Below are positions 32,855 to 56,918 of a DNA stretch of 64,000 nt, in pieces. How positions within the stretch are numbered: the stretch's first letter is position 1; every line of letters begins with the position of its first letter. The stretch covers positions 256,001 through 320,000 of the forward strand of contig CBDESZ010000025.1 in NCBI GenBank assembly GCA_965242725.1, read 5' to 3'. The notes beneath the pieces are model-generated. The model did not search any database and had not been told where the DNA came from. It saw nothing but the letters and a program-made list of their open reading frames with translations. The stretch comes from Alkalispirochaeta sp. (GTDB taxonomy: Bacteria; Spirochaetota; Spirochaetia; DSM-27196; Alkalispirochaetaceae). The translations under genes and the position numbers were made by a program.

Positions 32855-32926
32855 TGTCGCATTATTTGAACGTCAGTATATATACTGCAACAATGTCATT
32901 CTCAATCGCCTTTCACGCTTTGTCAA
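32855..32926 (-). promoter_or_regulatory. gdhA promoter + tandem operator (site D)
   Basis: TTGACA(32926-21)-17-GAGAAT(32903-898), 5 nt, TGTTGCAGTATATATACT-GA-CGTTCAAATAATGCGACA (32892-32855). Confidence 0.75.
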
Positions 32927-32952
32927 GGAAGAATTATCGGATCGATTTTTTC

Positions 32953-33025
32953 TTGACAGTCCGAAGGTTCCGGTGCAGAATAGGTCTTGTTGCAAGATAG
33001 TAACATATGTTCAAATAACGGAACA
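32953..33025 (+). promoter_or_regulatory. Transaminase-asd-TRAP operon promoter + tandem operator (site A)
   Basis: TTGACA(32953-58)-17-CAGAAT(32976-81), 6 nt, TGTTGCAAGATAGTAACA-TA-TGTTCAAATAACGGAACA (32988-33025). Confidence 0.8.
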
Positions 33026-33052
33026 CAGAATTATATAATAGGAGATGGAATA

Positions 33053-34429
33053 ATGAGTGATCGATTTTCTGAGCTATCCCTCAGTGAAGCGCCGGTAATT
33101 AAGGTAACCCCTCCCGGACCCAAGTCAAAAGAGCTGCTTGATGCGCAGGCGAAACTTGAAGGATCCGCCGTATCATATCCCAAGGGGATGCCCATGGCCA
33201 TAAAGCGGGGCAAGGGCGCAACCATCGAGGATGTGGACGGAAACGTGTATATCGATATGTTCGGGGGAGCCGGCGTCATGGCAGTCGGTCACGGCCATCC
33301 TGACGTTCTGAAAGCCGCCCATGATGCGATCGAACAGTATACCCATACACTGGATATTCCCACGGAAGTGCGGAAGACGATGGTGGACACCCTGCGGGAA
33401 CTCCTCCCCTCGGAGCTTTCCCGGGTTTTCTTCGGCGGTCCCACCGGCTCCGACGCGGTCGAACAGGCGATCAAGCTTGCCCGGTACAATACCGGCCGAC
33501 ACGAGATCATCGCCTTTCACGGTGCGTACCACGGCATGACCGGTGTCGCCCTGGCGCTCACCACCGATGACAGCCATCGCAAGGGTATGGAGCCCCTCGT
33601 TCCGGGAATCCGCTTCATCCCCTACGATTACAAGTATCGTTCTCCCTTCGGCGAGCCCGAAGAAGACAGCGATCTTCGCGCGGCGGACTATCTGGACATG
33701 GTTTTGACCAACTCGCACTCCGGGTTCGGCAAGCCTGCGGCGGTTATTCTGGAATCGGTACAGGGCGAAGGTGGAACGATCATACCCAGCGTACGTTTCA
33801 TGCGCCGAGTCAGGGAAATCACCAAGAAACACGACGTGATTCTCATCTGTGACGAAATCCAGGCGGGACTGGGCCGTACCGGAAAGATGTTTGCCTTTGA
33901 ACACTACGGAGACGACTTTGTCCCCGATATCATCACGATGTCCAAGGCCCTTGGAGGCATCGGATTCCCGATCTCCGCCATCGCATACAAGGAAGAGCTC
34001 AATACCTGGCCCGCCGGTGCCTCCATCGGTACCTTCCGCGGAAACATGGTCGCCTTTGCCGCCGGCGCGGCAGCGCTTCGCTTCATGAAGGACAATGATG
34101 TGCCGGGCTACGCTGCGGAACTGGGCGCCAGGATGCTCAAGGAACTCAAGAAGCTTGAGACGGAAACCAAAATCGTCGGTGAAGCACGCGGAATCGGTCT
34201 CATGTTCGGTATCGAAATCGTGCGTGACCAGAAAACGAAAGAACCCGCCGGCGATCTCGCCAAAAAGGTCAGAAAATACGCTCATCAGCGGGGCGTCATG
34301 ATCGAGGTAGGCGGTCACCACGGGAACGTTGCCCGACTCCTTCCGCCGCTCATCATCTCCGAAGAGCTTGCAATGAAGGGCGTGAAGATCATCACCGAGG
34401 TCATCAAGGACATCGAGAAAGAGCTGTAG
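33053..34429 (+). CDS. Diaminobutyrate:2-oxoglutarate transaminase (EctB/Dat-type class III aminotransferase)
   Basis: GPTGSDAVEQAIKLAR, FHGAYHGMT, ESVQGEGG, DEIQAGLGRTG, SKALGG, GTFRGN. Confidence 0.85.
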   Translation: MSDRFSELSLSEAPVIKVTPPGPKSKELLDAQAKLEGSAVSYPKGMPMAIKRGKGATIEDVDGNVYIDMFGGAGVMAVGHGHPDVLKAAHDAIEQYTHTLDIPTEVRKTMVDTLRELLPSELSRVFFGGPTGSDAVEQAIKLARYNTGRHEIIAFHGAYHGMTGVALALTTDDSHRKGMEPLVPGIRFIPYDYKYRSPFGEPEEDSDLRAADYLDMVLTNSHSGFGKPAAVILESVQGEGGTIIPSVRFMRRVREITKKHDVILICDEIQAGLGRTGKMFAFEHYGDDFVPDIITMSKALGGIGFPISAIAYKEELNTWPAGASIGTFRGNMVAFAAGAAALRFMKDNDVPGYAAELGARMLKELKKLETETKIVGEARGIGLMFGIEIVRDQKTKEPAGDLAKKVRKYAHQRGVMIEVGGHHGNVARLLPPLIISEELAMKGVKIITEVIKDIEKEL

Positions 34430-34454
34430 GATACGGGTGGAGAAGGAACAATTT

Positions 34455-35483
34455 ATGGCTAAAGATAGATATAATGTAGCCGTCGTCGGCGCCCTGGGCG
34501 TCGTCGGAACGGAAATGATGAAGACACTGGAGCGGCGGAACTTTCCTATTGCCGAGTTTCGACCTCTCGATATTCCCGAAAATGCGGGAAAGGAAGTCAC
34601 CTTCAACGGGAAGCCCGTCAAAGTGCAGGCGGCGGTCAAGGAAAACTTCAAGGGTATCGATATTGCGATCTTTTCCGCAGGCGCCACCGCATCAAAAGCG
34701 CTGGCACCCCAGGCGGTTGAGATGGGCGCCGTGGTCGTGGACAACTCCTCGGAGTGGCGTATGAATCCGGAATGCCCCCTGGTCGTCCCGGAAGTGAATC
34801 CCGACGACCTGAAGTGGCACAAGGGGATCATCCCCAACCCCAACTGTTCGACAATTCAAATGGTGGTCGCCCTCAAGCCTCTCCACGATGCCGGCAAGAT
34901 CAAGCGGATCGTCGTCTCCACCTACCAGGCTGCGTCCGGTGGTGGTGCAAAAGGGTTGAACGGGCTCGCCGCGGAAGCTGAGGAGTACATGAAGACGGGC
35001 AAGCAGGTCGCACCGCGGGTGCATCCGGTACAGCTCGCCTTCAATGCGGTGCCCCATATCGACGTCTTCCAGGAACATGGTTACACCAAGGAAGAGTTCA
35101 AGATGGTCAATGAGACCAAGAAGATCATGGGCGACGACTCCATAGAGGTAAACCCGACGGCGGTACGCATACCCGTCTATTACGGCCACTCTGAATCGAT
35201 AAACATCGAGACGGAAAAGAAGATCACCGCCGACGAGGCGCGGGCGCTTCTTTCCAAAGCCCCGAGCATCATCGTGAAGGATGATCCCGCCAACAACGTG
35301 TATCCCACGCCGCTGGAATCCAACGATGTGGATGAGACGATGGTGGGGCGGATCCGGGAGGATCTGACGATCAAGAACGGTCTGAACCTCTGGGTCGTCT
35401 CCAACAACATACGGAAGGGTGCGGCACTCAACGCCGTACAAATCGCCGAAACACTGGTGAAAATGGACCTGGTTCGGGTATGA
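34455..35483 (+). CDS. asd: Aspartate-semialdehyde dehydrogenase
   Basis: VVDNSSEWRM, LVVPEVN, NPNCST (catalytic Cys), STYQAASG, GHSE, NIRKGAALNAVQIAE. Confidence 0.96.
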   Translation: MAKDRYNVAVVGALGVVGTEMMKTLERRNFPIAEFRPLDIPENAGKEVTFNGKPVKVQAAVKENFKGIDIAIFSAGATASKALAPQAVEMGAVVVDNSSEWRMNPECPLVVPEVNPDDLKWHKGIIPNPNCSTIQMVVALKPLHDAGKIKRIVVSTYQAASGGGAKGLNGLAAEAEEYMKTGKQVAPRVHPVQLAFNAVPHIDVFQEHGYTKEEFKMVNETKKIMGDDSIEVNPTAVRIPVYYGHSESINIETEKKITADEARALLSKAPSIIVKDDPANNVYPTPLESNDVDETMVGRIREDLTIKNGLNLWVVSNNIRKGAALNAVQIAETLVKMDLVRV

Positions 35484-36688
35484 ACATTCGAGAGGAGATC
35501 CTGGAACTGAAGGATGAGTTGATTCACATCCGTCGGGATCTGCACATGCATCCGGAACTCGGTTTTGAAGAGTTTCGAACTGCCGATATTATCGAGCAGT
35601 ATCTGCGGGAGCTGGGGCTGGAGCCCCAGCGCCTCGCACAGACGGGCGTTGTTGCGACGATGGCAGGAACCGCCATCGGCAGCTCCGACGGCCCGACGCT
35701 CATGCTTCGGGCGGACATCGACGCGCTCCCCATTCAGGAAGAGACGGATGTCCCCTACAAGTCGCTCAACGACGGTGTCATGCACGCCTGCGGTCATGAC
35801 GCCCATACGGCGATCCTGCTGATTACCGCGAAGGTGTTGAGCCGCCATCGGGACAAAATCAAGGGCAAGGTGAAGTTTCTCTTTCAGCCCAATGAAGAGG
35901 TTGCCGGTGCGGAAATCATGGTCGCCGAGGGGGCGCTTGAAAACCCCCGGGTCGACGCGGCGATGGGTATTCACATCTGGACGCCCCTCTTGAGCGGACA
36001 GATCGCCGCTACCGTCGGGGGTGTCATGGCGAGCATGGACGTCTTTCATATCGTCATCAAGGGGAAGGGCGGTCACACGGGATATCCCGATTCCGCGATC
36101 GACCCGATCATCTGCGCGGCCAACCTTATCGAGACGGCCCAGCGCATTCAGACGCGGGATATCAGCCTCTTATATCCCACCAACCTCATGTTTTCCAAAA
36201 TCACTTCAGGTACAAAAAACAACATCATTCCGGATCAGGTCGAGATTGAAGGTACTTTACGGTACCTTTATGAGCCGACGGAGGAGTTTAACCCTGCACG
36301 GAGATTGGAAGAGGTGGTACAATCGGTATGTGCCGTGCACCGTTGCGGGTATGAGTTCTCCATAGAGACGGAGAACGAGGTCGTCGTCAACGCGCCGGAA
36401 ATGGTGCAACTCGTCCGGGAGACGGCGGCGGAAATGGTTGAAAGTAAAAAAGACCTGGTGGAGCATCGCTCCATGGCAGGCGAGGATTTTGCGGCCTACG
36501 CAAAACGGGTTCCATCGGCGTTCATACACGTCGGCACGCGGGATCCGGAGAAAGGGAGTGACTATCCCCATCACAGTCCCCACTTCAATATCGACGAGGA
36601 AACACTGCCGACGGGGGTAGAACTGTTCGTTCGGTCGACCGAGCGATTTTTTGAACGGGAATGGGACTTCGACGTAAGTCGAAGTTAA
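35480..36688 (+). CDS. M20D amidohydrolase (N-acyl-amino-acid amidohydrolase family)
   Basis: RRDLHMHPELGFEE, LRADIDALP, MHACGHDAH, FQPNEE, GEDFA, HHSPHF; ATGA-coupled to asd. Confidence 0.9.
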   Translation: MNIREEILELKDELIHIRRDLHMHPELGFEEFRTADIIEQYLRELGLEPQRLAQTGVVATMAGTAIGSSDGPTLMLRADIDALPIQEETDVPYKSLNDGVMHACGHDAHTAILLITAKVLSRHRDKIKGKVKFLFQPNEEVAGAEIMVAEGALENPRVDAAMGIHIWTPLLSGQIAATVGGVMASMDVFHIVIKGKGGHTGYPDSAIDPIICAANLIETAQRIQTRDISLLYPTNLMFSKITSGTKNNIIPDQVEIEGTLRYLYEPTEEFNPARRLEEVVQSVCAVHRCGYEFSIETENEVVVNAPEMVQLVRETAAEMVESKKDLVEHRSMAGEDFAAYAKRVPSAFIHVGTRDPEKGSDYPHHSPHFNIDEETLPTGVELFVRSTERFFEREWDFDVSRS

Positions 36689-36709
36689 AAAAAAACAGGA
36701 GGTATTCTT

Positions 36710-37783
36710 GTGGCAAAGAAAATCTTTGTACTAACGATGCTGCTGGTGTTTGCAGTGAGCATGACCGGGCTGTTTGCCGAAGGCAATCAGGAACGGGGTG
36801 GTGGAGGAACCACTCAGGTGATTGAAGCTCGACTCGCATCGGAAGAGATCGAAGGCGACTTCATGACCGTATGGGCGAACAACTTCGCCGACTACATGCG
36901 GGAAGCAACGGACGGCGGATACGATCTGGACGTCTATCCCTATGGTGCGATCGGTGATACCCGTGACATCAACGAGCTGGCTCAGCTCGGTGTTGTGGAA
37001 TGGGTCTTCTCCGACTACGCCTGGATCAGTGCATTTGTGCCGCAGGCACAGGTCCTGGCCCTCAACTACCTGTGGCCCCGTGACAAGGTAGCCGAGGTCG
37101 TCGAGTGGGTCGTGAAGAACGGCGAAACGATGGATCTTCTTGAAAATCACTTCCGCCGGAACGGCCTCGTTCCCCTCTCAATCATGTTTGAAGGCTGGCA
37201 GTGGGTAACTTCCACCGATCCGGTCAGCACGCTTGAGGAGATGCAGGGCGTTAAGGTCCGTGTCATGGGCTCCCAGATGCTTGTTGCCAACTATCGCTCC
37301 TATGGATACAGCCCCACGCCGATGAGCTACGGTGAAGTCTACAGCGGTCTTCAGACCGGTCTGATTGATGCACAGATCAACCCGCTCTTCGCGATTTACA
37401 GCATGAAGTTCTACGAGCCGACCCGCTATTTCACCCAGATGTGGGCGGAACCGTTCCTCGGAATTCCCACGGCCAACATGCAGCACTTTGATTCTCTTCC
37501 TGAAGAGTATCAGCAGCTGATGCGCGACTGGTGGGCGGACGCGATCGTTCCCGCCGGTGAGTGGATCAATGAGAAGAACGCCGGATTCCGCGAGGCGATT
37601 ATGGAAGAAAAACCCTCCATCGTCTGGAACGAGTTCAGCGATGAGCAGATCGCCGAAGCGACCGAAATTGCACGGACCGTCGATGCGGACTTCATCAAGG
37701 CCGGTGGTGACGGTGCTGAAGAGTTGCTCGACACGCTCCTTCGCGACATTGAAGAAGCAAAACAGGCGCTTGGCGTAGACTAA
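36710..37783 (+). CDS. TRAP transporter substrate-binding protein, TeaA/UehA-like (ectoine/hydroxyectoine)
   Basis: Signal peptide; SEEIEG, YPYGAIG, KVRVMGS, PTPMSYGEVYSGLQTGLIDAQINP resembling TeaA; context. Confidence 0.8.
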   Translation: MAKKIFVLTMLLVFAVSMTGLFAEGNQERGGGGTTQVIEARLASEEIEGDFMTVWANNFADYMREATDGGYDLDVYPYGAIGDTRDINELAQLGVVEWVFSDYAWISAFVPQAQVLALNYLWPRDKVAEVVEWVVKNGETMDLLENHFRRNGLVPLSIMFEGWQWVTSTDPVSTLEEMQGVKVRVMGSQMLVANYRSYGYSPTPMSYGEVYSGLQTGLIDAQINPLFAIYSMKFYEPTRYFTQMWAEPFLGIPTANMQHFDSLPEEYQQLMRDWWADAIVPAGEWINEKNAGFREAIMEEKPSIVWNEFSDEQIAEATEIARTVDADFIKAGGDGAEELLDTLLRDIEEAKQALGVD

Positions 37784-37859
37784 GCAAATACGAGACGGCA
37801 TGGACTGTTCACGGTTCATGCCGTCTTTGTATATTCAAAAAGAGGGAGAGTGGTACCCA

Positions 37860-38417
37860 ATGAGTAACGAACCACAGGAAAAAATCACGATCGGGCGACG
37901 CGTAAGTCTCGTGGTCGACTGGTTTGAGGTGGGAGCCTTGAGTCTTTCGACAGCGGCGCTTGCGATCCTCCTGATCGCCAACGTCATCGCCCGGACCTTT
38001 TTTCAGGCGATCTATTTTGCCGAGGAACTTGCGGAGTTTCTCGTCGTCTTTACAACATTTGTCGGTGTGAGCTACGCCGCACGGAAGGCGCGACATATCC
38101 GAATGGGCGCATTTCTGGATTCAATGCCGCCGAAAGTGGAAAAGGTCTTCATTTACGTAATTTCCGCAATCAGTGCGGTGGTGATGTTTATCATGGCCTA
38201 TCACTCCTGGAACTACATGCTCACCGCCCGAATGATGGGGCAGACCACCCAGGCGCTGAGAATGCCCTACTGGATCACCCTCGTCATCGTCCCGATCGGT
38301 TTCGCGAGTGCGGGAATTCAATACGTCAGGACGGTCTGGAAAAATATTCTTGAAGAAGACGTCTGGCAGTCTCCCGAGCAGCAGAGTGAATACGAAGACG
38401 AGATAGGGGGCTACTGA
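37860..38417 (+). CDS. TRAP transporter small permease (DctQ, TeaB-like)
   Basis: IANVIAR, IYFAEEL, ARHIRM; 4 TM. Confidence 0.88.
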   Translation: MSNEPQEKITIGRRVSLVVDWFEVGALSLSTAALAILLIANVIARTFFQAIYFAEELAEFLVVFTTFVGVSYAARKARHIRMGAFLDSMPPKVEKVFIYVISAISAVVMFIMAYHSWNYMLTARMMGQTTQALRMPYWITLVIVPIGFASAGIQYVRTVWKNILEEDVWQSPEQQSEYEDEIGGY

Positions 38418-38418
38418 T

Positions 38419-39708
38419 ATGACGTTATTATGGGTAAGTATGGTGGTGATGCTCCTGATGGGTTTTCCCTTCATGGTGCTCATCCTCGGATCGTTGCTGC
38501 TCCATGTCGGTATCAATATGCCGTCATTCAATTTCAGCAACGTCATGGTTCAACAGGTCCTCACCGGCCTGACTCCTCCGGCGCTTCAGGCGGTCCCGAT
38601 GTTTATCCTCGGAGCGGGGATTCTTACTTCAGGCAAGGCGGCACGGAAGCTGATCGACATGGTTCGTGTCATGGTCGGTCACATACCGGGCGGTCTCGCC
38701 ATCACCACAAACGCAAGCTGTACCCTCTTCGGTGCCGTATCGGGCTCCACCCAGGCGACGGTGGCGGCGATCGGCGGTACGATGCGACCGATGCTCCTTG
38801 AGGCGGGATACAAGAGTCCCTTTACCCTGGGGCTCATCATTAATGCCAGTGATATCGCCCTGCTCATTCCACCGAGTATCGGCTTTATCGTCTACGGTGT
38901 CGTGACCAACACCTCCGTGGGTAAGCTCTTTCTCGCCGGTGTATTGCCGGGTATTCTCATCTTTGTCCTCTTTTCCATATACGCCTATATATACTCCGTC
39001 CGCCATAAGGTGGGTGTCGCTCCAAAGGCGACGACCAAAGAGCGTATTTCGGCGCTCAAAGAGGGGTTCCCCGTTCTCGGCTTTCCGATCATTATCGTCG
39101 GAGGTATTTACGCCGGTATCTTCAGCCCGACGGAAGCGGCGGCGGCGGCGGTGCTCTACGCAATCTTCATTGAAATTACCATATACCGCACCATGACGTG
39201 GAAAGGGCTGGTCAAGGTACTTCTCGATACGGGTGTCATTACCGGTGTCGTATTTGTCCTTGTCGGTGCGGGGCAGGCATTCTCCTGGCTCATCAGCTTC
39301 CTGCGTATCCCCGAGGCGATCATGCCGGCGATTCTCGGAACCGATCCCTCGCAGCTTCAGGTCATCATCACCGTGATCATCGCCTACTTTATTGCGTGTA
39401 TGTTCGTAGATCCCATCGTGGCGATTTACGTCTTCTCGCCGATATTTGCACCGTATGTCGTTGCCACGGGTATCGATCCGGTGTTCCTCGGTGTCCTCGT
39501 AACCCTTCAGGCGGCGATCGGCTCCGCAACGCCGCCCTTCGGGTGCGACATCTTCACGGCACAGCTGATATTCAGGCGTCCATACCTGGAAGTCATTCGA
39601 AATACGCCGCCCTTTATACTCCTCCTTATCCTTGCAACGGCACTCATCGTTATCTTTCCCGAGATTGCGACGTTCCTGCCGGACAATATGATGAATCTTG
39701 GTGGATGA
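38419..39708 (+). CDS. TRAP transporter large permease (DctM, TeaC-like)
   Basis: FGAVSGSTQATVAAIG, NASDIALLIPPSIG, FSPTEAA, IGSATPPFGCDIF. Confidence 0.92.
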   Translation: MTLLWVSMVVMLLMGFPFMVLILGSLLLHVGINMPSFNFSNVMVQQVLTGLTPPALQAVPMFILGAGILTSGKAARKLIDMVRVMVGHIPGGLAITTNASCTLFGAVSGSTQATVAAIGGTMRPMLLEAGYKSPFTLGLIINASDIALLIPPSIGFIVYGVVTNTSVGKLFLAGVLPGILIFVLFSIYAYIYSVRHKVGVAPKATTKERISALKEGFPVLGFPIIIVGGIYAGIFSPTEAAAAAVLYAIFIEITIYRTMTWKGLVKVLLDTGVITGVVFVLVGAGQAFSWLISFLRIPEAIMPAILGTDPSQLQVIITVIIAYFIACMFVDPIVAIYVFSPIFAPYVVATGIDPVFLGVLVTLQAAIGSATPPFGCDIFTAQLIFRRPYLEVIRNTPPFILLLILATALIVIFPEIATFLPDNMMNLGG

Positions 39709-39737
39709 GAGGCAACAACGCGTTAACACCATAACGG

Positions 39738-39770
39738 AAGACCGGCCGCTGAAGCGGTCGGTCTTTTTTT
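39738..39770 (+). terminator. Intrinsic terminator of the transaminase-TRAP operon
   Basis: AAGACCGGCCGCT-GA-AGCGGTCGGTCTT followed by a T tract. Confidence 0.85.
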
Positions 39771-39792
39771 ATATACTGACTGAGGGGGCCAC

Positions 39793-44867: not shown

Positions 44868-44871
44868 CGTC

Positions 44872-46076: not shown

Positions 46077-46877
46077 TTACGTTTCTCTTCGTCCCAATTG
46101 TTGTGATATGGAACGAGTTGTATCCAATAATGCGTCAATGAGGCGATCCAGTTTTTCCGGGGTCGCCCGAATCGATGGTCCGGAAATGCTCAGATTTGCG
46201 ACGACCTTTCCTCGGTAATCGAAAATCGGCGATGAGTAGCTGTTGAGATCGTCACTGAACTCACGAATTTCCGTCGAGTAACCGCGGCGTCGAACCTCAT
46301 CGAGCTCGTGACGCATCGCGTCGACGTCCGTGATGGTATTGGCGGTTCGCCGTTCCATGTCCCCCTCGGTGAGAATGCGTACAGCCTCCTCCCAGGGTAT
46401 ATAGGCAAGAAAGTTTTTTCCCGACGCACAGGTGTGTATGGGATAGGTGTATGTGACGTCCGGATTCAGGGAGAGCGGATTATTGCTCTTGATTTCCTCT
46501 ATGGCGATGACCATGCGTCCGTACAGGACGGTGAGATAGATATTCTCGTTTGCGATGCGTCCAAGGTCAACCATGAGCGGTTTGGCGATCTCCCGCAAAT
46601 CCTGGCTCATGGGAACACGGCTGCCCAGTTTGAAAACGGAAAAGCTGAGTCGATACCCTTTTCGCGGGTCTTTGGTGACGTATCCAATCTCCATGAGTGT
46701 CGCGAGGAGACGGTGGACGTTTGTGCGGGTCAGACCGAGCCGTTCCGAGATGAACGACGGCTTCACCGGCTGATTGTTGCTTATGAACTCCAGCAGGTTG
46801 AACGCCTTCAGCACGGTGGTGGAAGGAGTGTAGTGACTAGTATTACTATTTGAACCGTCGTTAGTATGTTGCAACAC
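46077..46877 (-). CDS. IclR-family transcriptional regulator 1 (probably leaderless, GTG start ~46877)
   Basis: VLKAFNLLE..HTH..VHRLLATL, CASGK, RGYS, SISGP; the ORF-track start at 46913 coincides with a -35 box. Confidence 0.88.
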   Translation of the reverse strand: MLQHTNDGSNSNTSHYTPSTTVLKAFNLLEFISNNQPVKPSFISERLGLTRTNVHRLLATLMEIGYVTKDPRKGYRLSFSVFKLGSRVPMSQDLREIAKPLMVDLGRIANENIYLTVLYGRMVIAIEEIKSNNPLSLNPDVTYTYPIHTCASGKNFLAYIPWEEAVRILTEGDMERRTANTITDVDAMRHELDEVRRRGYSTEIREFSDDLNSYSSPIFDYRGKVVANLSISGPSIRATPEKLDRLIDALLDTTRSISQQLGRRET

Positions 46878-46913
46878 CACCTGAATTGTGGCGTAGCGTT
46901 GACGGTTTGTCAA
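46839..46913 (-). promoter_or_regulatory. iclR1-doeA-eutB-eutC promoter + tandem operator (site B)
   Basis: TTGACA(46913-08)-17-CACAAT(46890-85), 8 nt, TGTTGCAACATACTAACG-AC-GGTTCAAATAGTAATACT (46876-46839). Confidence 0.8.
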
Positions 46914-46941: not shown

Positions 46942-47730
46942 TTATCCCTTTCCGAGACGGGCGAGACGGATGTTTTCCTCCACTTTTTGAGCCACCTCTT
47001 TCAGGCGCGGGAGGAGATCATCGATCATCGTAAAGGTAAGGCGATCGACCGGTCCTGAAACGCTGATTCCCGATACGGATATGTCTTCATGGCCATGTAT
47101 TGGTACGGCGAAACAGCGGACCTCCATCGCGAGCTCCTGCCGGTCGACGGCGTATCCCATTCTGCGAACATCGTCAATCTCCTTTTTCAGGCCGTCCGGG
47201 GTCACGATCGTGTTCGGCGTATACGGGGTGAGGGCGATGCGGTGAATCACGCTGTCGAGTTCCTCGTCGTCAAGTTCCGCAAGAAGTACCTTCCCGACGG
47301 AGGTGCAGTGCAACGGTTCCGTCTCGCCGACTGAGCGGTCTAACTGCAAATAGGTGGAAGGAGTCGCCTTGTCGACGTAAAGAACCTGATCTTCAAAGTT
47401 GATTCCGTGGTTGACCGTCAGCTCCGTATCATGGGAGAGCTCCAACAGTTCCCTGCGCGCCGTGTCGATGAGATCATAGCTGTGGGGTACCGAATTGCCG
47501 ACTTCGAAAAGATGAAAGGTGAGACGGTATCCTCCGTCGGCATACTTGTCGACGTAGTTGAGGATTTCAAGGGTGTACAGCATGCGATGAACCGTCGACC
47601 GGTTGAGATCCAGCTCATGGGCGAGATCCCGGGGATACACTTTGCCGTGTTCGGCGATGTACTCCAGAATCTGTGCGGCGGTGACGACGGTACTCGCGAC
47701 ATTGTTCTGCGTTTCTTGGTGGAGACTCAT
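46942..47730 (-). CDS. IclR-family transcriptional regulator 2
   Basis: STVHRMLYTL, PLHCTSVGKVLLA, GYAVD..E, ISVSGP. Confidence 0.92.
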   Translation of the reverse strand: MSLHQETQNNVASTVVTAAQILEYIAEHGKVYPRDLAHELDLNRSTVHRMLYTLEILNYVDKYADGGYRLTFHLFEVGNSVPHSYDLIDTARRELLELSHDTELTVNHGINFEDQVLYVDKATPSTYLQLDRSVGETEPLHCTSVGKVLLAELDDEELDSVIHRIALTPYTPNTIVTPDGLKKEIDDVRRMGYAVDRQELAMEVRCFAVPIHGHEDISVSGISVSGPVDRLTFTMIDDLLPRLKEVAQKVEENIRLARLGKG

Positions 47731-47787
47731 GACACATAAGAGCTTAAACGAGGGGGTTCCCGGTATCAAGGTATGTTACTATCGGGA

Positions 47788-48981
47788 ATGGCTCATACAT
47801 CACATATGGAGAAAGGAATCGCCTTTCGCCACGCTCTTCCAACTGTCATCTTTGTCGTTTCGGTTTCCATCCTCTTTTTTATCGGTCGTTCCGCCTTTGC
47901 ACCGCTGCTGCTGGATGTGGAGGATACCTTTCACGTCGGTCACGCCCGGTCGTCACGGCTGATGCTGACGTTGACTCTTGGGTACTCCCTGTCCATGTTT
48001 TTTTCAGGCGTGGTTTCACAGCGCGTCACCCATCGGCGGCTCATACCCCTTTCTGCGGGCCTCGGCGCTGCGGGCATGCTCGTTCTCGCGACGGCACCTG
48101 ACATGATCTTCATGAATGCGGGTCTCATCGTCTTCGGAATCGGCTTCGGTCTCTTCGTTCCTTCGGCGATCAGCGTGATAACGACGGCGGTGGATCGCCG
48201 TGACTGGCAGCGCGCCTTTTCAATCAATGAAATGAGCCCCCATATCGGAATGATACTCGCGCCGCTCATTGTAGCCGCGTCCAGGCCGGTATTGTCCTGG
48301 CGATGGATGTTTGGTCTGGTAAGTCTCTCTCTGGTCGCGGGGGCCCTCCTTTTTGCCGTTCGGGTCCGTGACGGCGACGCCCACGGTCGTGCCCCGAACC
48401 TCGCTGTTCTGGTGCAGCTGGTTCGTCGGAAAGAGTTCTGGGTCCTTATCGTCTTTTTCGCCCTCTCCCTCGCCGGAACGGACGGTGTGTACCTCCTCAT
48501 ACCGGCATTTCTCGTGACCGAAGGCGGGGTCAACCCCCGACTGGCAAATACCGTCTTCGGGATTTCCCGGTTCATGCCGCTGGTGACACTCCTAGCGGCG
48601 GCGTTTTTCGTCGATCGCATCAGGCCGAGGGTACTCATGGCTTTTGCCCTCGCCGGACAGGGACTGGCACTCGTCTTGCTCGGCACCTTCACCGGATGGG
48701 GACGACTATTGGTTGTATTTCTGCAACCCGCAATCGGGGCGCTCTACTTTCCGGCCGGATTTGCCGCATTGTCGTCCCTCATGCCGCCGGAATCACGGAA
48801 TGTGGGAGTGTCTATGACTCTTCCCACCGCCGTTTTTCTCGGGGTGGGGGTGATTCCCTCAGTCGTCGGTTACATGGGTGAATATTTCACCTTTGCCGGC
48901 GGATTCATCGGTCTCGGAGGGATTATGGCGGCGGTCAGCGTCCTCTCATTTACCGGCAGATTCACTCGCGACCGTGGATAG
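47788..48981 (+). CDS. MFS transporter
   Basis: About 12 TM helices, RSAFAPLL in helix 1; start 47788 or 47806. Confidence 0.8.
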   Translation: MAHTSHMEKGIAFRHALPTVIFVVSVSILFFIGRSAFAPLLLDVEDTFHVGHARSSRLMLTLTLGYSLSMFFSGVVSQRVTHRRLIPLSAGLGAAGMLVLATAPDMIFMNAGLIVFGIGFGLFVPSAISVITTAVDRRDWQRAFSINEMSPHIGMILAPLIVAASRPVLSWRWMFGLVSLSLVAGALLFAVRVRDGDAHGRAPNLAVLVQLVRRKEFWVLIVFFALSLAGTDGVYLLIPAFLVTEGGVNPRLANTVFGISRFMPLVTLLAAAFFVDRIRPRVLMAFALAGQGLALVLLGTFTGWGRLLVVFLQPAIGALYFPAGFAALSSLMPPESRNVGVSMTLPTAVFLGVGVIPSVVGYMGEYFTFAGGFIGLGGIMAAVSVLSFTGRFTRDRG

Positions 48982-49759
48982 TTTCACCGATATGCCCCAT
49001 CGTCATTGAAAGTCCCTGTGCCTCCGCAAGAATGCGGGGAGCCACGTCATTGAGTACGTCCGGGGTCAGGATCATGACCGGTCCGATTACCGAGAGGGAT
49101 GCGATAAAATTCCCGTCGTGATTTCTAACCGCTGCGGCGATCCCGTTGATATAGGGGCTGTGTTCTCCAAGCTCAAGGGAGTATCCCCGTCTGCGGGTAA
49201 TGAGGATCTCCCGTTCCAGCGCTTCCGCGTCCCCGATTGAATGCTTCGTCGGGGTGTGGAAGGCCATGTTTCGATAGAGCTCTTGTCGTTGTTCCTCCGG
49301 GAGGGTGGATAGGTAGAGCTTCCCCGATGCCGTGCTGTTGAGGTCATAGGTGACGGCGAAGTCATTGGCTACCTGAATATCGGCCGGGGGGATCACCCGT
49401 TCGAGGTTGACCATTTTATTGTCCGCCGGCGCGGTCAGATAGACGTTGGCCTGCATGTCCAGGGCGATCCGCTCCATAACGGGGCGAGCCGCCGCAGCGA
49501 TGTCCCGTGTGAGCGGTACCGTATTTCCAAGAGAGTGGAGCTTGAAGGTGAGGCTGAAGGCGTTCTCGTGCTTTTCCACATACCCGAGATACTCCAGACT
49601 GGCGAGGAGGCTGTGCACATTTCCCTTGCTCAGCTGCAGACGTCTGATGATTTCAGGCGTCCCGATCGGCTGATGCTCGGCGATGCATTCCAGAATTCCA
49701 AATGCCTTTGTCAGCGTCGTTGATATGATGTAGCTGCGCTGTCTTTCCGGTCTGCCCAT
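48962..49759 (-). CDS. IclR-family transcriptional regulator 3
   Basis: TLTKAFGILE, KGNVHSLLASL, TASGKLYL, RGYS, LSVIGP; start 49759 or 49774. Confidence 0.9.
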   Translation of the reverse strand: MGRPERQRSYIISTTLTKAFGILECIAEHQPIGTPEIIRRLQLSKGNVHSLLASLEYLGYVEKHENAFSLTFKLHSLGNTVPLTRDIAAAARPVMERIALDMQANVYLTAPADNKMVNLERVIPPADIQVANDFAVTYDLNSTASGKLYLSTLPEEQRQELYRNMAFHTPTKHSIGDAEALEREILITRRRGYSLELGEHSPYINGIAAAVRNHDGNFIASLSVIGPVMILTPDVLNDVAPRILAEAQGLSMTMGHIGETIHGRE

Positions 49760-49773
49760 TATAAAACCTTCCA

Positions 49774-49848
49774 TTGACGATTTGCCGGTTCAGTCTTACT
49801 ATACAGTAGTGGTTTATATGGTAGAACATAAGTCTAAATATGTAAACC
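49774..49848 (+). promoter_or_regulatory. Amidohydrolase-ureohydrolase operon promoter + variant tandem operator (site C)
   Basis: TTGACG(49774-79)-17-TACTAT(49797-802), 8 nt, GGTTTATATGGTAGAACA-TA-AGTCTAAATATGTAAACC (49811-49848). Confidence 0.7.
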
Positions 49849-49869
49849 AATTCTTTTACGCAGGTATAT

Positions 49870-52112: not shown

Positions 52113-52138
52113 GGGGTGAAAAGTTTTTATAAAATGAT

Positions 52139-52173
52139 TTGCCATAACACGACGTTCCCCCCATAATCGAGCC
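52139..52173 (+). promoter_or_regulatory. Internal leaderless promoter for doeA copy 2
   Basis: AT-rich UP-like tract, TTGCCA-17-CATAAT, ATG 6 nt later, no SD. Confidence 0.6.
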
Positions 52174-53364
52174 ATGTCACTCATACGCAACAAAACACAC
52201 TTTGAGCGGGCGGAATACGACCGTCGCCTGCGCAAGACGAAAGAACGAATGGACCACGCCGGCATTGAGGTGCTCCTCGTGGTAGATCCGGCAAACATGA
52301 ACTATCTCACCGGTTACGACGGGTGGAGTTTCTACGTGCATCAGGGGCTCCTCATTGCCCTCGACAGGGAAGAACCGATCTGGTTCGGGCGTCAGCAGGA
52401 TTCCAACGGTGCGCGAATCACGACATGGCTTTCCGAAGAGAGCATCGTCGGGTATCCCGATGAGTACGTACAGTCCCGCTATACCCACACGATGGTGTTT
52501 GTGTCACAGATGCTCAGGGAGCATATGTGGGACCGCCGCGTCCTCGGTGTGGAAATGGATAATTACTGGTTTTCCGCGCGAATGCTGTTGACCCTGCAGA
52601 GTGAAATTGCGGGTCTCCGCGTGCAGGATGCGACCAATCTCGTGAACTGGGTTAAAACGGTGAAGTCCGAGGCGGAAATTCGCTATATGCGCGACGCCGC
52701 GGCGATCTGTAAAAATGTAATGGATGTGGCGATAGAGAATATCGCCGTCGGTGTGAGGGAGAAGGACGTGGCGGGTCTTGTCGCGGGAGCTCAGATACAC
52801 GGCACCGAAGAGTTCGGCGGTGACTCTCCTGCGATTTTCCCGATCATGCCAAGCGGAGAGAACACCTCCACCGCCCATTTGACCTTTGATCCCGACCGGA
52901 GTTACGAGGCGGGGGATGTTGTCCTTCTTGAGCTGGCAGGCGCGAGGTATCGCTATCATGCACCTCTTTCCCGGACTGTGTATCTTGGCACGCCGCCGTC
53001 GGATTTGCAGAAGGTGGCCGATGTCGTGGTCAACGGACTGAATCGCACCCTGAACTTCATTAAACCCGGCGTCACCGCCGAGGAGGTGGAAGCGACGTGG
53101 CGGGATTGCCTGAAGGGTACGGGGGTGGAGAAGCCGTCTCGAGTCGGGTATTCCTTTGGGTTGAGTTACGTCCCCGACTGGGGAGAACATACGGTTAGTT
53201 TGCGTCCAGGCGACAAGAGCGTTCTCGAGCCGGGAATGACGATTCACTTCATGCCGGGGATCTGGCTTGACACCTACGGATTCGAATGCAGCGAACCGTT
53301 CCTCGTAACCGAGACGGGGTGCGAAAAGCTCATCGAGTATCCGCAAAAGCTGTTTGTGAAATAG
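52174..53364 (+). CDS. doeA: Ectoine hydrolase DoeA/EutD-like (M24 fold), copy 2
   Basis: NMNYLTGYDGWSFYVHQ, LVNWVKTVKS, AHLTF, RYHAPLSRT, SRVGYSFG.SYVPDWGE. Confidence 0.8.
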   Translation: MSLIRNKTHFERAEYDRRLRKTKERMDHAGIEVLLVVDPANMNYLTGYDGWSFYVHQGLLIALDREEPIWFGRQQDSNGARITTWLSEESIVGYPDEYVQSRYTHTMVFVSQMLREHMWDRRVLGVEMDNYWFSARMLLTLQSEIAGLRVQDATNLVNWVKTVKSEAEIRYMRDAAAICKNVMDVAIENIAVGVREKDVAGLVAGAQIHGTEEFGGDSPAIFPIMPSGENTSTAHLTFDPDRSYEAGDVVLLELAGARYRYHAPLSRTVYLGTPPSDLQKVADVVVNGLNRTLNFIKPGVTAEEVEATWRDCLKGTGVEKPSRVGYSFGLSYVPDWGEHTVSLRPGDKSVLEPGMTIHFMPGIWLDTYGFECSEPFLVTETGCEKLIEYPQKLFVK

Positions 53365-53446
53365 AAAGGCCCGCCGAGGGCCGCACAGCCCGGCCTCCGG
53401 GGTCACGCCCCGCGAGGGGACGGGGCAGTGCGGGTACTCCCATGGC

Positions 53447-54190
53447 CTACATGAAGCCGTCGTATCGTCTCGGTACGACGGACTGGAATACGTAGCGAAT
53501 CATGGTGTTGTAATCAAAGACGGGCAGGCCCGTGTGGCGTCGCACCGCCGCGGCATACGGCGGCAGGAGGGAGCACTCAAGGAGAATCGCCCCGAGTTTT
53601 CTTCCTCCTTCGTCGGCAGCCTTCCGGATCTCGTCCACCGTCTGAATCACTTCCTGTTCCACCACATCGCTGTCGAGAACGCCGTTCTCTTCAAAGACGG
53701 CGTCCACGAAATGGGGCTTGTCCTCGAGGCCGCCCGCGACAAGACGGTCGTCGGGAACGGCGGTTACCACGTTCAGAATATCCCGGGTCAGAGATCCCTT
53801 GTTCGCTGTGACGATGCCGACATCCCTGTCGGGACCCGCGAGGCGCGCCATGAAATCGAGCTGAAGAAGGCTCGAGAGGAATACGGGGACGCCAAGCTCG
53901 CGGGCAATTTCGTCCTGAAAATAGGCGAGAAACCCGCAGTCACCGGTGATTGCCCGTACGCCCTCGGCGACCAGGCGCCGTCCCGCGGCGACGATATCGT
54001 CGCGGAGTGAGCCGTCGTGGCTGAAGAGCCGGCTCGTGGTGGATCCCGGAAGGCGTTCAAAACGGACGGGAAAATCATAGCTCGTCGCGTTGGCCGTGTC
54101 CCCGGGAATATAGGGGACAAAATTTTCGATTACCAGAATTCCGATGGCTTCACCGTAGCTCACCTGACCTGGATGGGTGTGATATTTCAT
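53447..54190 (-). CDS. Aspartate/glutamate racemase-superfamily protein
   Basis: IPGD..NA.SYDFPV, AITGDCGF and LLECSLLPPY (two Cys), GLPVFD. Confidence 0.75.
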   Translation of the reverse strand: MKYHTHPGQVSYGEAIGILVIENFVPYIPGDTANATSYDFPVRFERLPGSTTSRLFSHDGSLRDDIVAAGRRLVAEGVRAITGDCGFLAYFQDEIARELGVPVFLSSLLQLDFMARLAGPDRDVGIVTANKGSLTRDILNVVTAVPDDRLVAGGLEDKPHFVDAVFEENGVLDSDVVEQEVIQTVDEIRKAADEGGRKLGAILLECSLLPPYAAAVRRHTGLPVFDYNTMIRYVFQSVVPRRYDGFM

Positions 54191-55182
54191 TGGATCTTCT
54201 CTCCCTGAAGTTGGATGCCGCGGTTCCCGTCGATGCGATTTCGACGACCGCCGTTCATATAGCTTCGCAAATTTTCGGCCGCTTCGGCTACGCATCGTGT
54301 ACGGGATTCCACGGTCGCCCATCCTATGTGGGGGGTTATGATGCAGTTTGGCGCCGATAGGAGCGGATGGTCTCCCTCAGGCGGTTCCTCGTACCCGACA
54401 ACGTCGACGGCGGCGCCGGCGAGGCTCCCGTTGTGAAGCGCTTCCGCGACGGCGGACTCATCGGTGAGCCCGCCCCTGGAGGTGTTGATCAGGAGGGCCG
54501 ACTCCTTCATTTGCGTCAATGCCCGTCGATCAATCAGTTCCGTCGTCTCTTCCGAAAGGGGGGTGTGTAACGTGACCACATCCGCCGCAGCGAGCAGATC
54601 GGACCACGAGAGCCACCGGACCTCGACACCGGGTATCGTCTTTCGCCGCGCCTCCCAGCCGAGGACCTTCATACCCAGGGCACCTGCGAGCTTCGCAACG
54701 GCCACGCCGATCGCGCCGAATCCCAGTATGGCGATAGATTTTCCCCGGAGTTCGAGAGCGGGGAAATCGGTATACGAGACCGGTTCGCCCCGACGCCATT
54801 TTCCCCGGTGAACGAGGGAGTTGTAGTCGCACACGCGGTGTGCCAGGTTGAGAATGAGTGCAAGTGTCAGTTCCGCAACGGAGTCGGTTGAATAGTCCGG
54901 GACATTTGTCACGGCAACTCCGGCGGACATCGCGGCGTCCACGTCAATTCGATCGTACCCTGTGGAAAAGAGCCCGATATACTTGAGCCGCGGCAGACGG
55001 GCGATACGTTCAGCGTGAAGAGCGACGTGATCCACGAGGATTGCGTCGGCGTCGGCGGCCAGTGAATCCAGAATGTCCTGGGAGAAATGGGGAGCCGCGG
55101 TGAAACTGCCCAGTTCATGAAAGGGCGACCACGAAATATCTCCGGGATTCACCCCGAATGCATCGATTGCAACGATCTTCAT
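54187..55182 (-). CDS. D-2-hydroxyacid dehydrogenase (glycerate dehydrogenase/hydroxypyruvate reductase-like)
   Basis: NPGDISW, TNVPDYST.SVAE, ILGFGAIG, INTSRG, TPHIGWAT.E.R. Confidence 0.9.
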   Translation of the reverse strand: MKIVAIDAFGVNPGDISWSPFHELGSFTAAPHFSQDILDSLAADADAILVDHVALHAERIARLPRLKYIGLFSTGYDRIDVDAAMSAGVAVTNVPDYSTDSVAELTLALILNLAHRVCDYNSLVHRGKWRRGEPVSYTDFPALELRGKSIAILGFGAIGVAVAKLAGALGMKVLGWEARRKTIPGVEVRWLSWSDLLAAADVVTLHTPLSEETTELIDRRALTQMKESALLINTSRGGLTDESAVAEALHNGSLAGAAVDVVGYEEPPEGDHPLLSAPNCIITPHIGWATVESRTRCVAEAAENLRSYMNGGRRNRIDGNRGIQLQGEKIQ

Positions 55183-56831
55183 TCTGCTCCCGGACACTGA
55201 GACGCGACGGAATCGGGAACCTTTCCGGCAAACTCCCCCTCGAAATGGGCGTGAAACTCCCGGGCGAGGCGTTGTGCGTGTTCCTCGTATGCTTCGGTAT
55301 CCTTCCACGCCATGCGGGGATTCAGCACCTCCCGGGGAACCTCCCGACATGTCACCGGTATGGAGAGGTTGAAAAACGGTTCCTTTTCAAATTCTCCGCC
55401 GTCCAGCTCCCCCGCGAGTGCCGCTTTTACCATGGAACGGGTCATGGCGATGTCTATCCGCCTGCCCGTTCCGTAGGCACCGCCGCTCCATCCGGTGTTG
55501 ACGAGGAACACCCTGGTCTGATGGCGATCGAGTTTTTCGCCGAGGAGATCGGTGTAGTCCTTGGGGTTACGGGGCATAAAGGGTGCGCCAAAGAATCGGG
55601 AGAAGACGGATTGGGGTTCCACAACACCCGTCTCCGTACCGGCCAGCTTGGAGGTATATCCCATCATGAACCAGAACATCGCCTGCTCGTTGGTCAGGCG
55701 CGCAATGGGCGGAAGTACACCGTAGGCGTCGGCGGTAAGGAAGACGATTGTCCGGGGATGCCCGCCCATGGACGACTCCTTGATGTTGGAAAGGTATGTG
55801 AGCGGGTAGGATGCCCGGGAGTTCTGGGTGAAGCGGTCATCATCGAAATCGAAGGCACCGGTGGGATAGACCATGAGATTTTCGACGAGCGCGCCGTGAA
55901 AGAGGTAGTGATCCGGGTGAAACACTGCGTGATACACCTCAGGCTCCTTGCGCGGATTCAGCTGGTAGAGTTTTGCGTAACAGCCGTTTTCAAAATTGGC
56001 TATTCCCGTGTCGCTCCATCCGTGTTCATCGTCACCCAAAAGCGCCCGGTCGGGAGCCGTAGAAAGGGTGGTCTTCCCCGTCCCCGAGAGTCCGAGAAAG
56101 ACGGCGATATCACCGCTTTTTCCTTCATTCGCACTGCAGTGAAGGGGCAGCACCTCCTGCTCCGGCAGGTAGTAGTTCATTACGGTAAACATGAGTTTCT
56201 TGATTGCACCCATGTAGGACGAGCCGAAGACGATGCCGATGCGGCGGTCAAAGTCCATGACTACTGCCATCGTTGAGGTTGAGCCGTCGGCGAGTTTTCT
56301 CAGCCGCCCCTCGTATCGCTCAGGGTGAAGTTTGTCGTACTGATTCACCAGAAGGTAAAACGGATAGTCCTCAAAACAGCTCGATTCGATTCCTGTAGGT
56401 TCCGGACGAAACATATTGTCTATGAACAGACCCGCCAGTGGGTTGTCTACAATTGAACACACCGGGAGTGCGTATGAAGGATCCGCTCCGATCGCCTTTT
56501 CCTGGACATAGACCTTCGGCTTCAACTCCAGCGCCTGCATCGCATCCTCAAATATCATGTCGAAGGTTTCTTCGTCGATGGCGATCGAGTAGGGTGAGTT
56601 CCAGTCAATCGTATTTTCACTCTCCGGGCGCCTGACGATCATCGTGTCTTTCGGACTTCTTCCCGTGGAATCCCTGGGCGTCCACGTGACGAGAGTGCCG
56701 CTTTCAAGACGTATCGCGTTCCAGTGGCTCACGGCATTATCAATCAGGACGCGCCGTGTCGGATTCCGAAAGACCTTTCCCGTCCGGTCGGCGAGGGTCC
56801 TGTCTATCCTCTGATGGTGAGTCTCGTGCAT
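55179..56831 (-). CDS. pckA: Phosphoenolpyruvate carboxykinase (ATP)
   Basis: TGRSPKD, LHCSAN, GLSGTGKTTLS, LGDDEHGW, FENGCYAK, LVNTGW; GGAGG SD before ATG 56831. Confidence 0.96.
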   Translation of the reverse strand: MHETHHQRIDRTLADRTGKVFRNPTRRVLIDNAVSHWNAIRLESGTLVTWTPRDSTGRSPKDTMIVRRPESENTIDWNSPYSIAIDEETFDMIFEDAMQALELKPKVYVQEKAIGADPSYALPVCSIVDNPLAGLFIDNMFRPEPTGIESSCFEDYPFYLLVNQYDKLHPERYEGRLRKLADGSTSTMAVVMDFDRRIGIVFGSSYMGAIKKLMFTVMNYYLPEQEVLPLHCSANEGKSGDIAVFLGLSGTGKTTLSTAPDRALLGDDEHGWSDTGIANFENGCYAKLYQLNPRKEPEVYHAVFHPDHYLFHGALVENLMVYPTGAFDFDDDRFTQNSRASYPLTYLSNIKESSMGGHPRTIVFLTADAYGVLPPIARLTNEQAMFWFMMGYTSKLAGTETGVVEPQSVFSRFFGAPFMPRNPKDYTDLLGEKLDRHQTRVFLVNTGWSGGAYGTGRRIDIAMTRSMVKAALAGELDGGEFEKEPFFNLSIPVTCREVPREVLNPRMAWKDTEAYEEHAQRLAREFHAHFEGEFAGKVPDSVASQCPGAE

Positions 56832-56846
56832 ACAACCTCCCTTTGT

Positions 56847-56918
56847 TGTATCATTATATGAACGACTGTTACAATTGTGAGACAATATCAGTGTAAGTTG
56901 GGTCGATGCCGCTGTCAA
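56847..56918 (-). promoter_or_regulatory. pckA operon promoter + tandem operator (site E)
   Basis: TTGACA(56918-13)-17-TACACT(56895-90), 5 nt, TGTCTCACAATTGTAACA-GT-CGTTCATATAATGATACA (56884-56847). Confidence 0.72.

What the first reader, a model, noticed from the sequence alone, without database searches (positions are those of the whole stretch)
32855..56884. Shared 38-bp tandem operator just downstream of four sigma70 promoters defines the regulon
All four sites lie 5-8 nt after a TTGACA-17bp-(-10) promoter and have an 18+2+18 layout. A (+32988, transaminase-asd-M20-TRAP): TGTTGCAAGATAGTAACA-TA-TGTTCAAATAACGGAACA. B (-46876, iclR1-doeA-eutBC): TGTTGCAACATACTAACG-AC-GGTTCAAATAGTAATACT. D (-32892, gdhA): TGTTGCAGTATATATACT-GA-CGTTCAAATAATGCGACA. 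E (-56884, pckA): TGTCTCACAATTGTAACA-GT-CGTTCATATAATGATACA. A and B match at 24 of their first 30 positions, and the second halves of D and E match at 15/18. Each 18-mer approximates the palindrome TGTT-N10-AACA. Two adjacent palindromes overlapping the start site fit a tetrameric repressor such as IclR. This is sequence-level evidence that gdhA and pckA are co-regulated with ectoine catabolism.
Basis: partly seen in the sequence, partly recalled or inferred. Interest (0 to 1): 0.82.

Follow-up and report, generated by a model that had tools for sequence, protein, structure and literature searches.

The report
Operator doubles as repressor's first codons
A 38-base DNA signal sits just behind the likely promoters of a salt-loving spirochaete's genes predicted to break down the osmoprotectant ectoine; it is likely the binding site of a neighbouring repressor, and in that repressor's own gene the same bases likely also encode the protein's first 13 amino acids.

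Summary
The four 38-mers are real. A matrix built only from relatives' non-coding sites ranks them 1-4 in the 4.3-Mb genome and finds a fifth (agcS-M20). Only these 5 of 247 TTGAC(A/T)-17-NANNNT promoters carry it. It fits a published IclR motif class (NGT-12-ACN, tandem, 20 nt apart). It tracks IclR1 (10/10 and 19/19 genomes with it, 2/31 and 3/42 without), not IclR2 (15/24) or IclR3 (1/24). A GTG/ATG sits one base before it at the predicted start site (37/39 genomes), indels are in frame, and wobble bases are frozen, so the operator is likely codons 1-13 of a leaderless gene. gdhA and pckA are cluster-dedicated second copies, and their sites are lineage-specific. Verdict: a likely autoregulated IclR repressor of ectoine catabolism in spirochaetes, a regulator type and phylum not named in the ectoine papers I read. 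Binding, start sites and inducer are untested. Bolder inference: Asd plus aspartate kinase replace DoeC and could yield ATP.

The parts
32988..33025 (+). Site A, tandem operator ahead of dat-asd-M20-dctPQM
   Evidence: 39.7 bits, matrix from relatives; conserved ahead of dat in relatives
32953..32981 (+). sigma70-like promoter A, TTGACA-17-CAGAAT, 6 nt before site A
32855..32892 (-). Site D, tandem operator ahead of gdhA (likely start ATG 32837, after AAGGAG)
   Evidence: strong site in 8 of 9 cluster-type gdhA loci, 0 of 21 other gdhA loci
32898..32926 (-). sigma70-like promoter D, TTGACA-17-GAGAAT
46839..46876 (-). Site B, tandem operator lying within codons 1-13 of iclR1
46885..46913 (-). 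sigma70-like promoter B, TTGACA-17-CACAAT; predicted +1 falls on the GTG at 46877
   Evidence: start site not mapped
46077..46877 (-). iclR1, predicted leaderless IclR-family repressor (266 aa), likely binder; first gene of iclR1-doeA-eutB-eutC
   Evidence: Pfam HTH_IclR + IclR_C; distribution matches the motif; residues 1-13 low confidence in the model
56847..56884 (-). Site E, tandem operator ahead of pckA - 2-hydroxyacid dehydrogenase - racemase-like (eutA-like) genes
   Evidence: strong site in 6 of 8 cluster-type pckA loci, 0 of 4 others
56890..56918 (-). sigma70-like promoter E, TTGACA-17-TACACT
33053..39708 (+). dat (DABA transaminase-like), asd, M20 amidohydrolase (DoeB2-like), TRAP dctPQM
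31503..32837 (-). gdhA, cluster-linked second glutamate dehydrogenase
30022..31338 (+). aspartate kinase, linked to the cluster; no site upstream in this genome
42881..46047 (-). doeA/eutD-like hydrolase, eutB, eutC
53447..56831 (-). pckA (second copy), 2-hydroxyacid dehydrogenase, Asp/Glu racemase-like
46942..47730 (-). iclR2, not required for the motif; no site upstream
48962..49774 (-). iclR3, rare among relatives
49811..49848 (+). related 18+2+18 IclR-type site between iclR3 and the carbamoylase-like gene; does not fit the IclR1 matrix, possibly IclR3's own
   Evidence: -12.9 bits; 11/16 and 13/16 to NGT-12-ACN

Best explanation
The 38-mer is likely the operator of IclR1, which would bind as a tetramer over +1 to +38 of five predicted sigma70 promoters and likely represses the genes predicted to import and break down ectoine, while in iclR1 itself the same bases lie in the reading frame and likely encode residues 1-13 of a leaderless protein. 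Shown: the motif, its position, its fit to the IclR NGT-12-ACN class with 20-nt spacing, its co-occurrence with IclR1, and the codon-level signature at the iclR1 5' end. Inferred: one dimer per 18-mer, with the downstream unit the stronger; repression by blocking initiation or escape of RNA polymerase from near-consensus promoters; negative autoregulation; release by a pathway intermediate (N-alpha-acetyl-DABA or DABA by analogy with EnuR, about 50%). Inferred metabolic logic: the DABA transaminase loads nitrogen on 2-oxoglutarate, the dedicated GdhA recycles it, and the pckA operon drains the C4 skeleton and supplies the eutA-like racemase.
For: Top ranks with a matrix that saw neither this genome nor any iclR1 site. 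5 of 247 promoter-like sites carry it, the next scores -3.4. Downstream unit 13.2/16 and upstream unit 10.6/16 against NGTYCRAW4TYGRACN, shuffles about 7 (consensus and 18-22-nt tandem spacing from PMC8222616). Pattern in 10/10 IclR1-positive and 2/31 negative genomes, and in a later set 19/19 (14 new) against 3/42. IclR2 ortholog in 15/24 and IclR3 in 1/24 IclR1 genomes. Start codon one base before the site in 23/25 and 14/14 genomes, length changes only +15, +15, -3, no stop in frame. Third bases fixed in 5 of 8 conserved operator codons, 0 of 30 downstream. The downstream GTG (codon 22) is kept in only 11/25. L104 has a Shine-Dalgarno in front of the same ATG. DoeA 1e-106 to a solved ectoine hydrolase; no EctA or EctC over cut-off.
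Against: No binding, start-site or expression data. The search pattern was drawn from sites of the first genome set, so only the absences there and the 14 later genomes are independent, and the genomes are kin. Three genomes without a detected IclR1 carry a match in the later set: G074 has doeA, G075 and G115 have none found (completeness not given). DoeA (468 vs 613 bits), EutC and the M20 protein (276 vs 550) fall below their NCBIfam ectoine cut-offs. Site D is decayed in G019 and site E in G008. L097 has TAA at codon 1 and would need the TTG at codon 2. doeA2 and ask have no site in this genome. A heteromer with IclR2 in this genome is not excluded.
Confidence: 0.8

Rival explanations
1. 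IclR2 or IclR3, alone or in a mixed tetramer with IclR1, is the real binder.
For: All three genes lie in the cluster; iclR2 is next to iclR1 in many relatives; in G019 the site between iclR3 and the carbamoylase-like gene scores 23.7 bits on the IclR1 matrix.
Against: 9 of 24 IclR1 genomes have no IclR2 ortholog (best hit is IclR1 itself) and 23 of 24 have no IclR3 ortholog, yet carry the sites. No site upstream of iclR2 in 11 of 11 loci.
Confidence: 0.07
2. The element acts as RNA: a 5'-terminal hairpin or protein-binding site shared by the transcripts.
For: It begins at the predicted +1, keeps one orientation relative to transcription in the 22 training sites, and A and D fold with z -2.8 and -2.0.
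Against: No shared fold: A gives two hairpins, D one, B and E are at shuffle level. The invariant C25 has a pairing partner in 0/22 and pair 12-27 in 1/22. No Rfam match. The sequence fits a DNA motif class.
Confidence: 0.04
3. The regulon is real, but its substrate is another cyclic amidine or N-acyl amino acid, not ectoine.
For: Key proteins score below ectoine-specific cut-offs; no EutE; carbamoylase- and formimidoylglutamase-like genes lie beside it; a 2026 preprint calls similar non-proteobacterial clusters provisional.
Against: DoeA x2, EutB, EutC, a DABA transaminase-like protein and a DoeB2-like hydrolase occur together; the top structural relatives of DctP are 3fxb, 3gyy and 2vpn (that these are UehA and TeaA is recalled); relatives are titled Alkalispirochaeta and other spirochaetes.
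Confidence: 0.12
4. A global regulator of another family (for example a LexA-like protein, whose recalled Firmicute box resembles the central AAC-N4-GTT) binds, or the likeness is only A+T-rich promoter sequence.
For: The centre of the element is AAC-N4-GTT; the sites are A+T-rich in a 58% G+C genome.
Against: Only 5-6 sites genome-wide, all five strong ones tied to this pathway; 242 of 247 other promoter-like sites score below zero; results hold with an A+T-rich background; the motif is missing from most genomes without IclR1.
Confidence: 0.02

Closest known systems
IclR-family tandem operators, group 1 subgroup NGT-12-ACN (Suvorova and Gelfand 2021, PMC8222616); TtgV-operator complex as structural model
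   Same: 18-bp units fitting NGTYCRAW4TYGRACN, centres 20 nt apart, autoregulation of a small local regulon including DctPQM.
   Different: No spirochaete or ectoine entry in the main text or the 5 supplements searched. The autoregulatory site is centred near +20 inside the coding region; the paper's peaks are at -22 and -3 to +1.
EnuR/EhuR (MocR/GabR) and AsnC/DoeX control of ectoine catabolism in Ruegeria, Sinorhizobium, Halomonas (PMC5924519, PMC3187862)
   Same: Repressor linked to TRAP uptake and eutD/doeA, eutBC, transaminase genes; induction by pathway intermediates is the expected logic.
   Different: Different protein family and motif; no MocR or AsnC gene among the ORFs scanned from 30 to 57 kb; no EutE and no DoeC/Ssd in the operons, with asd and ask instead; extra gdhA and pckA copies.
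eutE-less, ssd-less putative ectoine clusters of Thermodesulfobacteriota and Bacillota (bioRxiv 10.64898/2026.03.05.709796)
   Same: Two eutD homologs, no eutE or ssd, an M20/AbgB-type amidohydrolase.
   Different: There the regulators named are EnuR or PucR and the extra genes thrA and an aldehyde dehydrogenase; 'spiro' and 'IclR' occur 0 times in the main text; its supplements could not be seen.
Leaderless, autoregulated repressor genes and operators inside coding regions (lambda cI, tetR, purR; recalled, from no call)
   Same: Leaderless regulator mRNA, self-repression, an operator within a reading frame.
   Different: Here the whole main operator is codons 1-13, kept across 39 genomes, and it appears to dictate a disordered N-terminal tail.

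Membership tests
IclR-family tandem operator (NGT-12-ACN subgroup) | 18-bp unit fitting NGTYCRAW4TYGRACN | tested here: met
   downstream unit 13.2/16, upstream 10.6/16 over 22 sites; shuffles 7.0 and 6.7
IclR-family tandem operator (NGT-12-ACN subgroup) | tandem centres 18-22 nt apart | tested here: met
   20 nt in all sites
IclR-family tandem operator (NGT-12-ACN subgroup) | co-occurs with one IclR ortholog group and lies at its own gene | tested here: met
IclR-family tandem operator (NGT-12-ACN subgroup) | bound by the IclR, released by an effector | not testable with these tools
   needs EMSA or footprinting
Leaderless gene | start codon at the position of +1, no Shine-Dalgarno | tested here: met
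   -10 hexamer ends 4-7 nt before codon 1 in 23/25 and 13/14; SD-like word in 3/24, two of them overlapping the -10
Leaderless gene | mapped transcription start and protein N-terminus | not testable with these tools
   no RNA holder listed
Ectoine catabolic (eut/doe) cluster | EutD/DoeA hydrolase | tested here: inconclusive
   E 1e-106 and 1e-108 to solved DoeA, but 468 and 463 bits against a 613 cut-off
Ectoine catabolic (eut/doe) cluster | EutE/DoeB deacetylase | tested here: not met
   no TIGR02994 match in the 92%-complete genome; an M20 protein resembles DoeB2 below cut-off
Ectoine catabolic (eut/doe) cluster | DoeC/Ssd aldehyde dehydrogenase in the cluster | tested here: not met
   none in the window cluster or the G065 operon; 12 aldehyde dehydrogenase matches elsewhere in the genome
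EnuR/AsnC-regulated ectoine regulon | MocR/GabR or AsnC regulator gene in the cluster | tested here: not met
   only IclR genes among the ORFs scanned; the rest of the genome was not searched for these families
Structured cis-regulatory RNA | shared fold with kept pairing | tested here: not met

The most novel reading that the evidence does not exclude
Anaerobic halophilic spirochaetes ferment ectoine by a route not described so far. An IclR repressor, whose leaderless gene begins with its own operator, controls an operon in which the phosphorylating Asd and an aspartate kinase replace DoeC and run backwards, so that aspartate semialdehyde gives aspartyl-phosphate and then aspartate plus ATP. 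In G065 (IclR1 identical to a protein labelled Sediminispirochaeta smaragdinae) asd and ask lie in one 14-kb operon behind the operator while a separate ThrA serves biosynthesis.
Probability: 0.35. Interest if true: 0.72.

Novelty: new variant of a known kind. Interest (0 to 1): 0.52.

Why it matters
It gives a ready-to-test regulator, operator and regulon for ectoine use in a phylum that the ectoine surveys I read do not list, and adds IclR to EnuR, AsnC and PucR as candidate regulators. It is an unusually clean case of one DNA stretch read both as operator and as codons, with in-frame indels and frozen wobble bases across 39 genomes; it also corrects gene starts, which databases call inconsistently for this family. 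A cultured species appears to carry the simplest version, so the ATP-yielding Asd/Ask idea and an ectoine-pathway biosensor can be tested directly.

Tried and rejected
Rfam: no match in 28-60 kb. RNA hairpin reading rejected. I first read the fifth site as inverted, which would favour a DNA site; orthologous sites show it can be read in the usual orientation, so I dropped that argument. One training site (G019, ahead of iclR3) may belong to IclR3; removing it left the ranking unchanged. The 14-bit site on contig C5 (ThDP-enzyme/zupT interval) is not counted: it lacks the promoter geometry (absent) and no orthologous site was seen. No operator for IclR2 was found by scoring upstream regions (no de novo motif search). 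Ectoine synthesis rejected: EctC and EctA below cut-off. Accession look-up for four homologs could not be made, and the EutD/EutE structure paper is not held, so catalytic residues were not checked. Literature searches listed no paper whose title or abstract start concerns an IclR ectoine regulator, spirochaete ectoine catabolism or a leaderless IclR with an internal operator; most hits were seen as listings only and the library lacks most subscription journals. Earlier scan notes: nothing returned. No complex prediction was run.
Full report
Observation. The four 38-mers are present as written, 5-8 nt after TTGACA-17-NANN(A/C)T promoter-like sites, with the stated match counts. In leave-one-out scans of the 4.34-Mb, 92%-complete genome, the held-out site was beaten by no other position for A, D and E and by one for B. 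A matrix built from 22 non-coding sites of relatives scores A 39.7, D 39.6, E 37.9 and B 32.7 bits, then a fifth site at C25:5860 (23.3), a weak one on C5 (14.2) and background (7.1) (unchanged with 21 sites).

Setting. The related loci are all titled as spirochaetes, including Alkalispirochaeta (24 of 24). The window cluster holds two DoeA-like hydrolases (E 1e-106 and 1e-108 to solved DoeA), EutB, EutC, a DABA-transaminase-like protein, Asd, an M20 hydrolase, a TRAP system, a racemase-like protein, GdhA, PckA, aspartate kinase and three IclRs. The top structural relatives of DctP are 3fxb, 3gyy and 2vpn (their identity as the ectoine binders UehA and TeaA is recalled). EctA and EctC are below cut-off and EutE is not found. 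Several proteins fall below their ectoine-specific NCBIfam cut-offs, so the substrate is inferred.

Motif class. The consensus is TGTTKCA-nn-ATRKWAAC-n4-GTTCAAATAATRRWACA. Suvorova and Gelfand (PMC8222616; parts 1, 2, 3 and 5 of 8 read, supplements searched by term) define an IclR subgroup NGTYCRAW4TYGRACN and report tandem sites 18-22 nt apart in 94 ortholog groups. The downstream 18-mer fits at 13.2 of 16 positions and the upstream one at 10.6, against about 7 for shuffles, with centres 20 nt apart. The units are not true palindromes inside. An RNA role is unsupported: no shared fold, an invariant base that never pairs, no Rfam match.

Which IclR. A degenerate pattern (1 mismatch) is found in 10 of 10 genomes with an IclR1 ortholog and in 2 of 31 without; the pattern came from these genomes, so the presences are circular. 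In 15 further IclR1 genomes it was found in all 15. In a set examined afterwards it was found in 19 of 19 IclR1 genomes, 14 of them new, and 3 of 42 others; the reversed control rang in 4 of 61. Two of those three exceptions are sites ahead of agcS-M20, and one of these genomes has doeA. IclR2 orthologs (45% identity or more) occur in 15 of 24 IclR1 genomes and IclR3 in 1 of 24. These genomes are kin and mostly incomplete, so the counts are not independent trials.

Site B is coding. In 25 genomes the base before the site starts a GTG (14) or ATG (9). Of the other two, L094 has GTG one codon earlier and L097 has TAA followed by TTG. The -10 hexamer ends 4-7 nt before codon 1 in 23 of 25, placing the expected +1 on the start codon. 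The frame has no stop in codons 2-22 (0 of 25), while the other frames have stops in 6 and 25 of 25. The alternative GTG at codon 22 is kept in 11 of 25. In 14 later genomes all 14 have GTG or ATG at the same place, and the distance to the conserved Tyr is 44 nt in 11, 59 in 2 and 41 in 1, so changes come in whole codons. Among codons with a fixed second base, the third is also fixed in 5 of 8 within the operator and 0 of 30 downstream; GC3 is 0.26 against 0.68-0.73. L104 and L108 lack the promoter; L104 has GGAGGAGG before the same ATG, and both have weaker sites ahead of the upstream doeA2. The AlphaFold model gives residues 1-13 pLDDT below 50, with the first helix at 18, consistent with a tail shaped by the DNA's role.

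Regulon. Core: iclR1 and dat-asd-M20-TRAP. gdhA: strong site in 8 of 9 cluster-type loci (decayed in G019), 0 of 21 other gdhA loci. pckA: 6 of 8 cluster-type loci (decayed in G008; in G029 pckA follows eutB inside an operon), 0 of 4 others (one search used only the window's four sites). This genome's second gdhA (53%) and pckA (40%) have no site. Three genomes keep site E with pckA cut to a remnant ahead of the dehydrogenase and racemase genes, so those may be the selected targets. The agcS-M20 pair has a site in this genome and in G032, G050, G067, G074 and G075. Stand-alone TRAP operons have one in G002, G012, G029 and G060. G065 has a single site heading iclR1-dat-asd-M20-dctPQM-racemase-doeA-eutB-eutC-doeA2-ask, with no gdhA or pckA nearby.

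Mechanism. Inferred: an IclR1 tetramer, one dimer per unit, covers +1 to +38 and blocks initiation at strong promoters, including its own; an intermediate of ectoine breakdown releases it, as N-alpha-acetyl-DABA does for EnuR (PMC5924519, passages and section 8.2 read). GdhA would recycle the transaminase's 2-oxoglutarate and the pckA operon would drain the carbon. More speculative: the operons carry asd where known clusters carry the aldehyde dehydrogenase DoeC/Ssd (PMC3187862 and PMC7192451, passages). This type of aspartate kinase occurs in 10 of 10 IclR1 genomes and 1 of 31 others, and G065 has a separate ThrA. Asd and Ask in reverse would yield ATP (favourable equilibria recalled, not computed). 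Against this, in this genome ask is the only aspartate kinase found and has no site, and homoserine and aldehyde dehydrogenases exist elsewhere.

Novelty. The operator type is known. The 2018 review restricts ectoine consumers to Proteobacteria. A 2026 preprint (abstract, section 8 and passages read; supplements not seen) extends clusters to other phyla but has no 'spiro' or 'IclR' in its main text. The IclR survey has no spirochaete or ectoine entry. PMC5812351 (passages) was not relevant. Leaderless regulators and intragenic operators are known from recall; my searches listed no matching IclR case, which is weak evidence.

Verdict. Observation confirmed, interpretation supported and sharpened. 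New variant of a known kind. Interest 0.52; confidence in the main reading 0.8; novel case probability 0.35.

Noticed in passing
window 52139-52176 (+): doeA2 also looks leaderless: TTGCCA-17-CATAAT, 6 nt, then ATG, with a similar -10-to-ATG layout in several relatives; no IclR1 site.
   Followed up: partly
window 49811-49848: A cousin 18+2+18 IclR-type site 8 nt after TTGACG-17-TACTAT, between iclR3 and the carbamoylase-like gene; 20/38 identical to the matching G019 site; possibly IclR3's operator.
   Followed up: partly
L001 5860-5897 (G000 C25): Fifth site, 4 nt after TTGACT-17-GATCAT, ahead of an AgcS amino-acid carrier and a second DoeB2-like M20 hydrolase, 250 kb from the window; possibly uptake of an ectoine breakdown product.
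   Followed up: yes
window 30022-31338: All 10 IclR1 genomes gave only this one aspartate kinase match, while 28 of the 31 others gave two or three distant ones; the usual types may have been displaced.
   Followed up: no
G000 C5:104458-107141: The second pckA lies next to an asd copy 88% identical to the cluster's asd; neither has a site.
   Followed up: partly
L002 7292-7329 (G000 C5:49291): Weak 14-bit site between a ThDP-enzyme/aminotransferase/ABC transporter/aldehyde dehydrogenase operon and zupT; not accepted.
   Followed up: partly
L142, L145, L150; L084: pckA is reduced to a remnant in G019, G009 and G049 with the site kept, and is split in two frames in G029.
   Followed up: partly
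P0093, P0097-P0099, P0101, P0102, P0109, P0110, P0114, P0116, P0118: IclR1 homologs, one labelled Desulfuromusa, that start two residues before the conserved Tyr and lack the operator-like tail, while close relatives have it; real loss or gene-calling difference is unknown.
   Followed up: no
window 39793-42780 (+): A 995-aa protein with a PPDK nucleotide-binding domain and a weak receiver-like domain travels with the cluster, often beside gdhA; function unknown.
   Followed up: no
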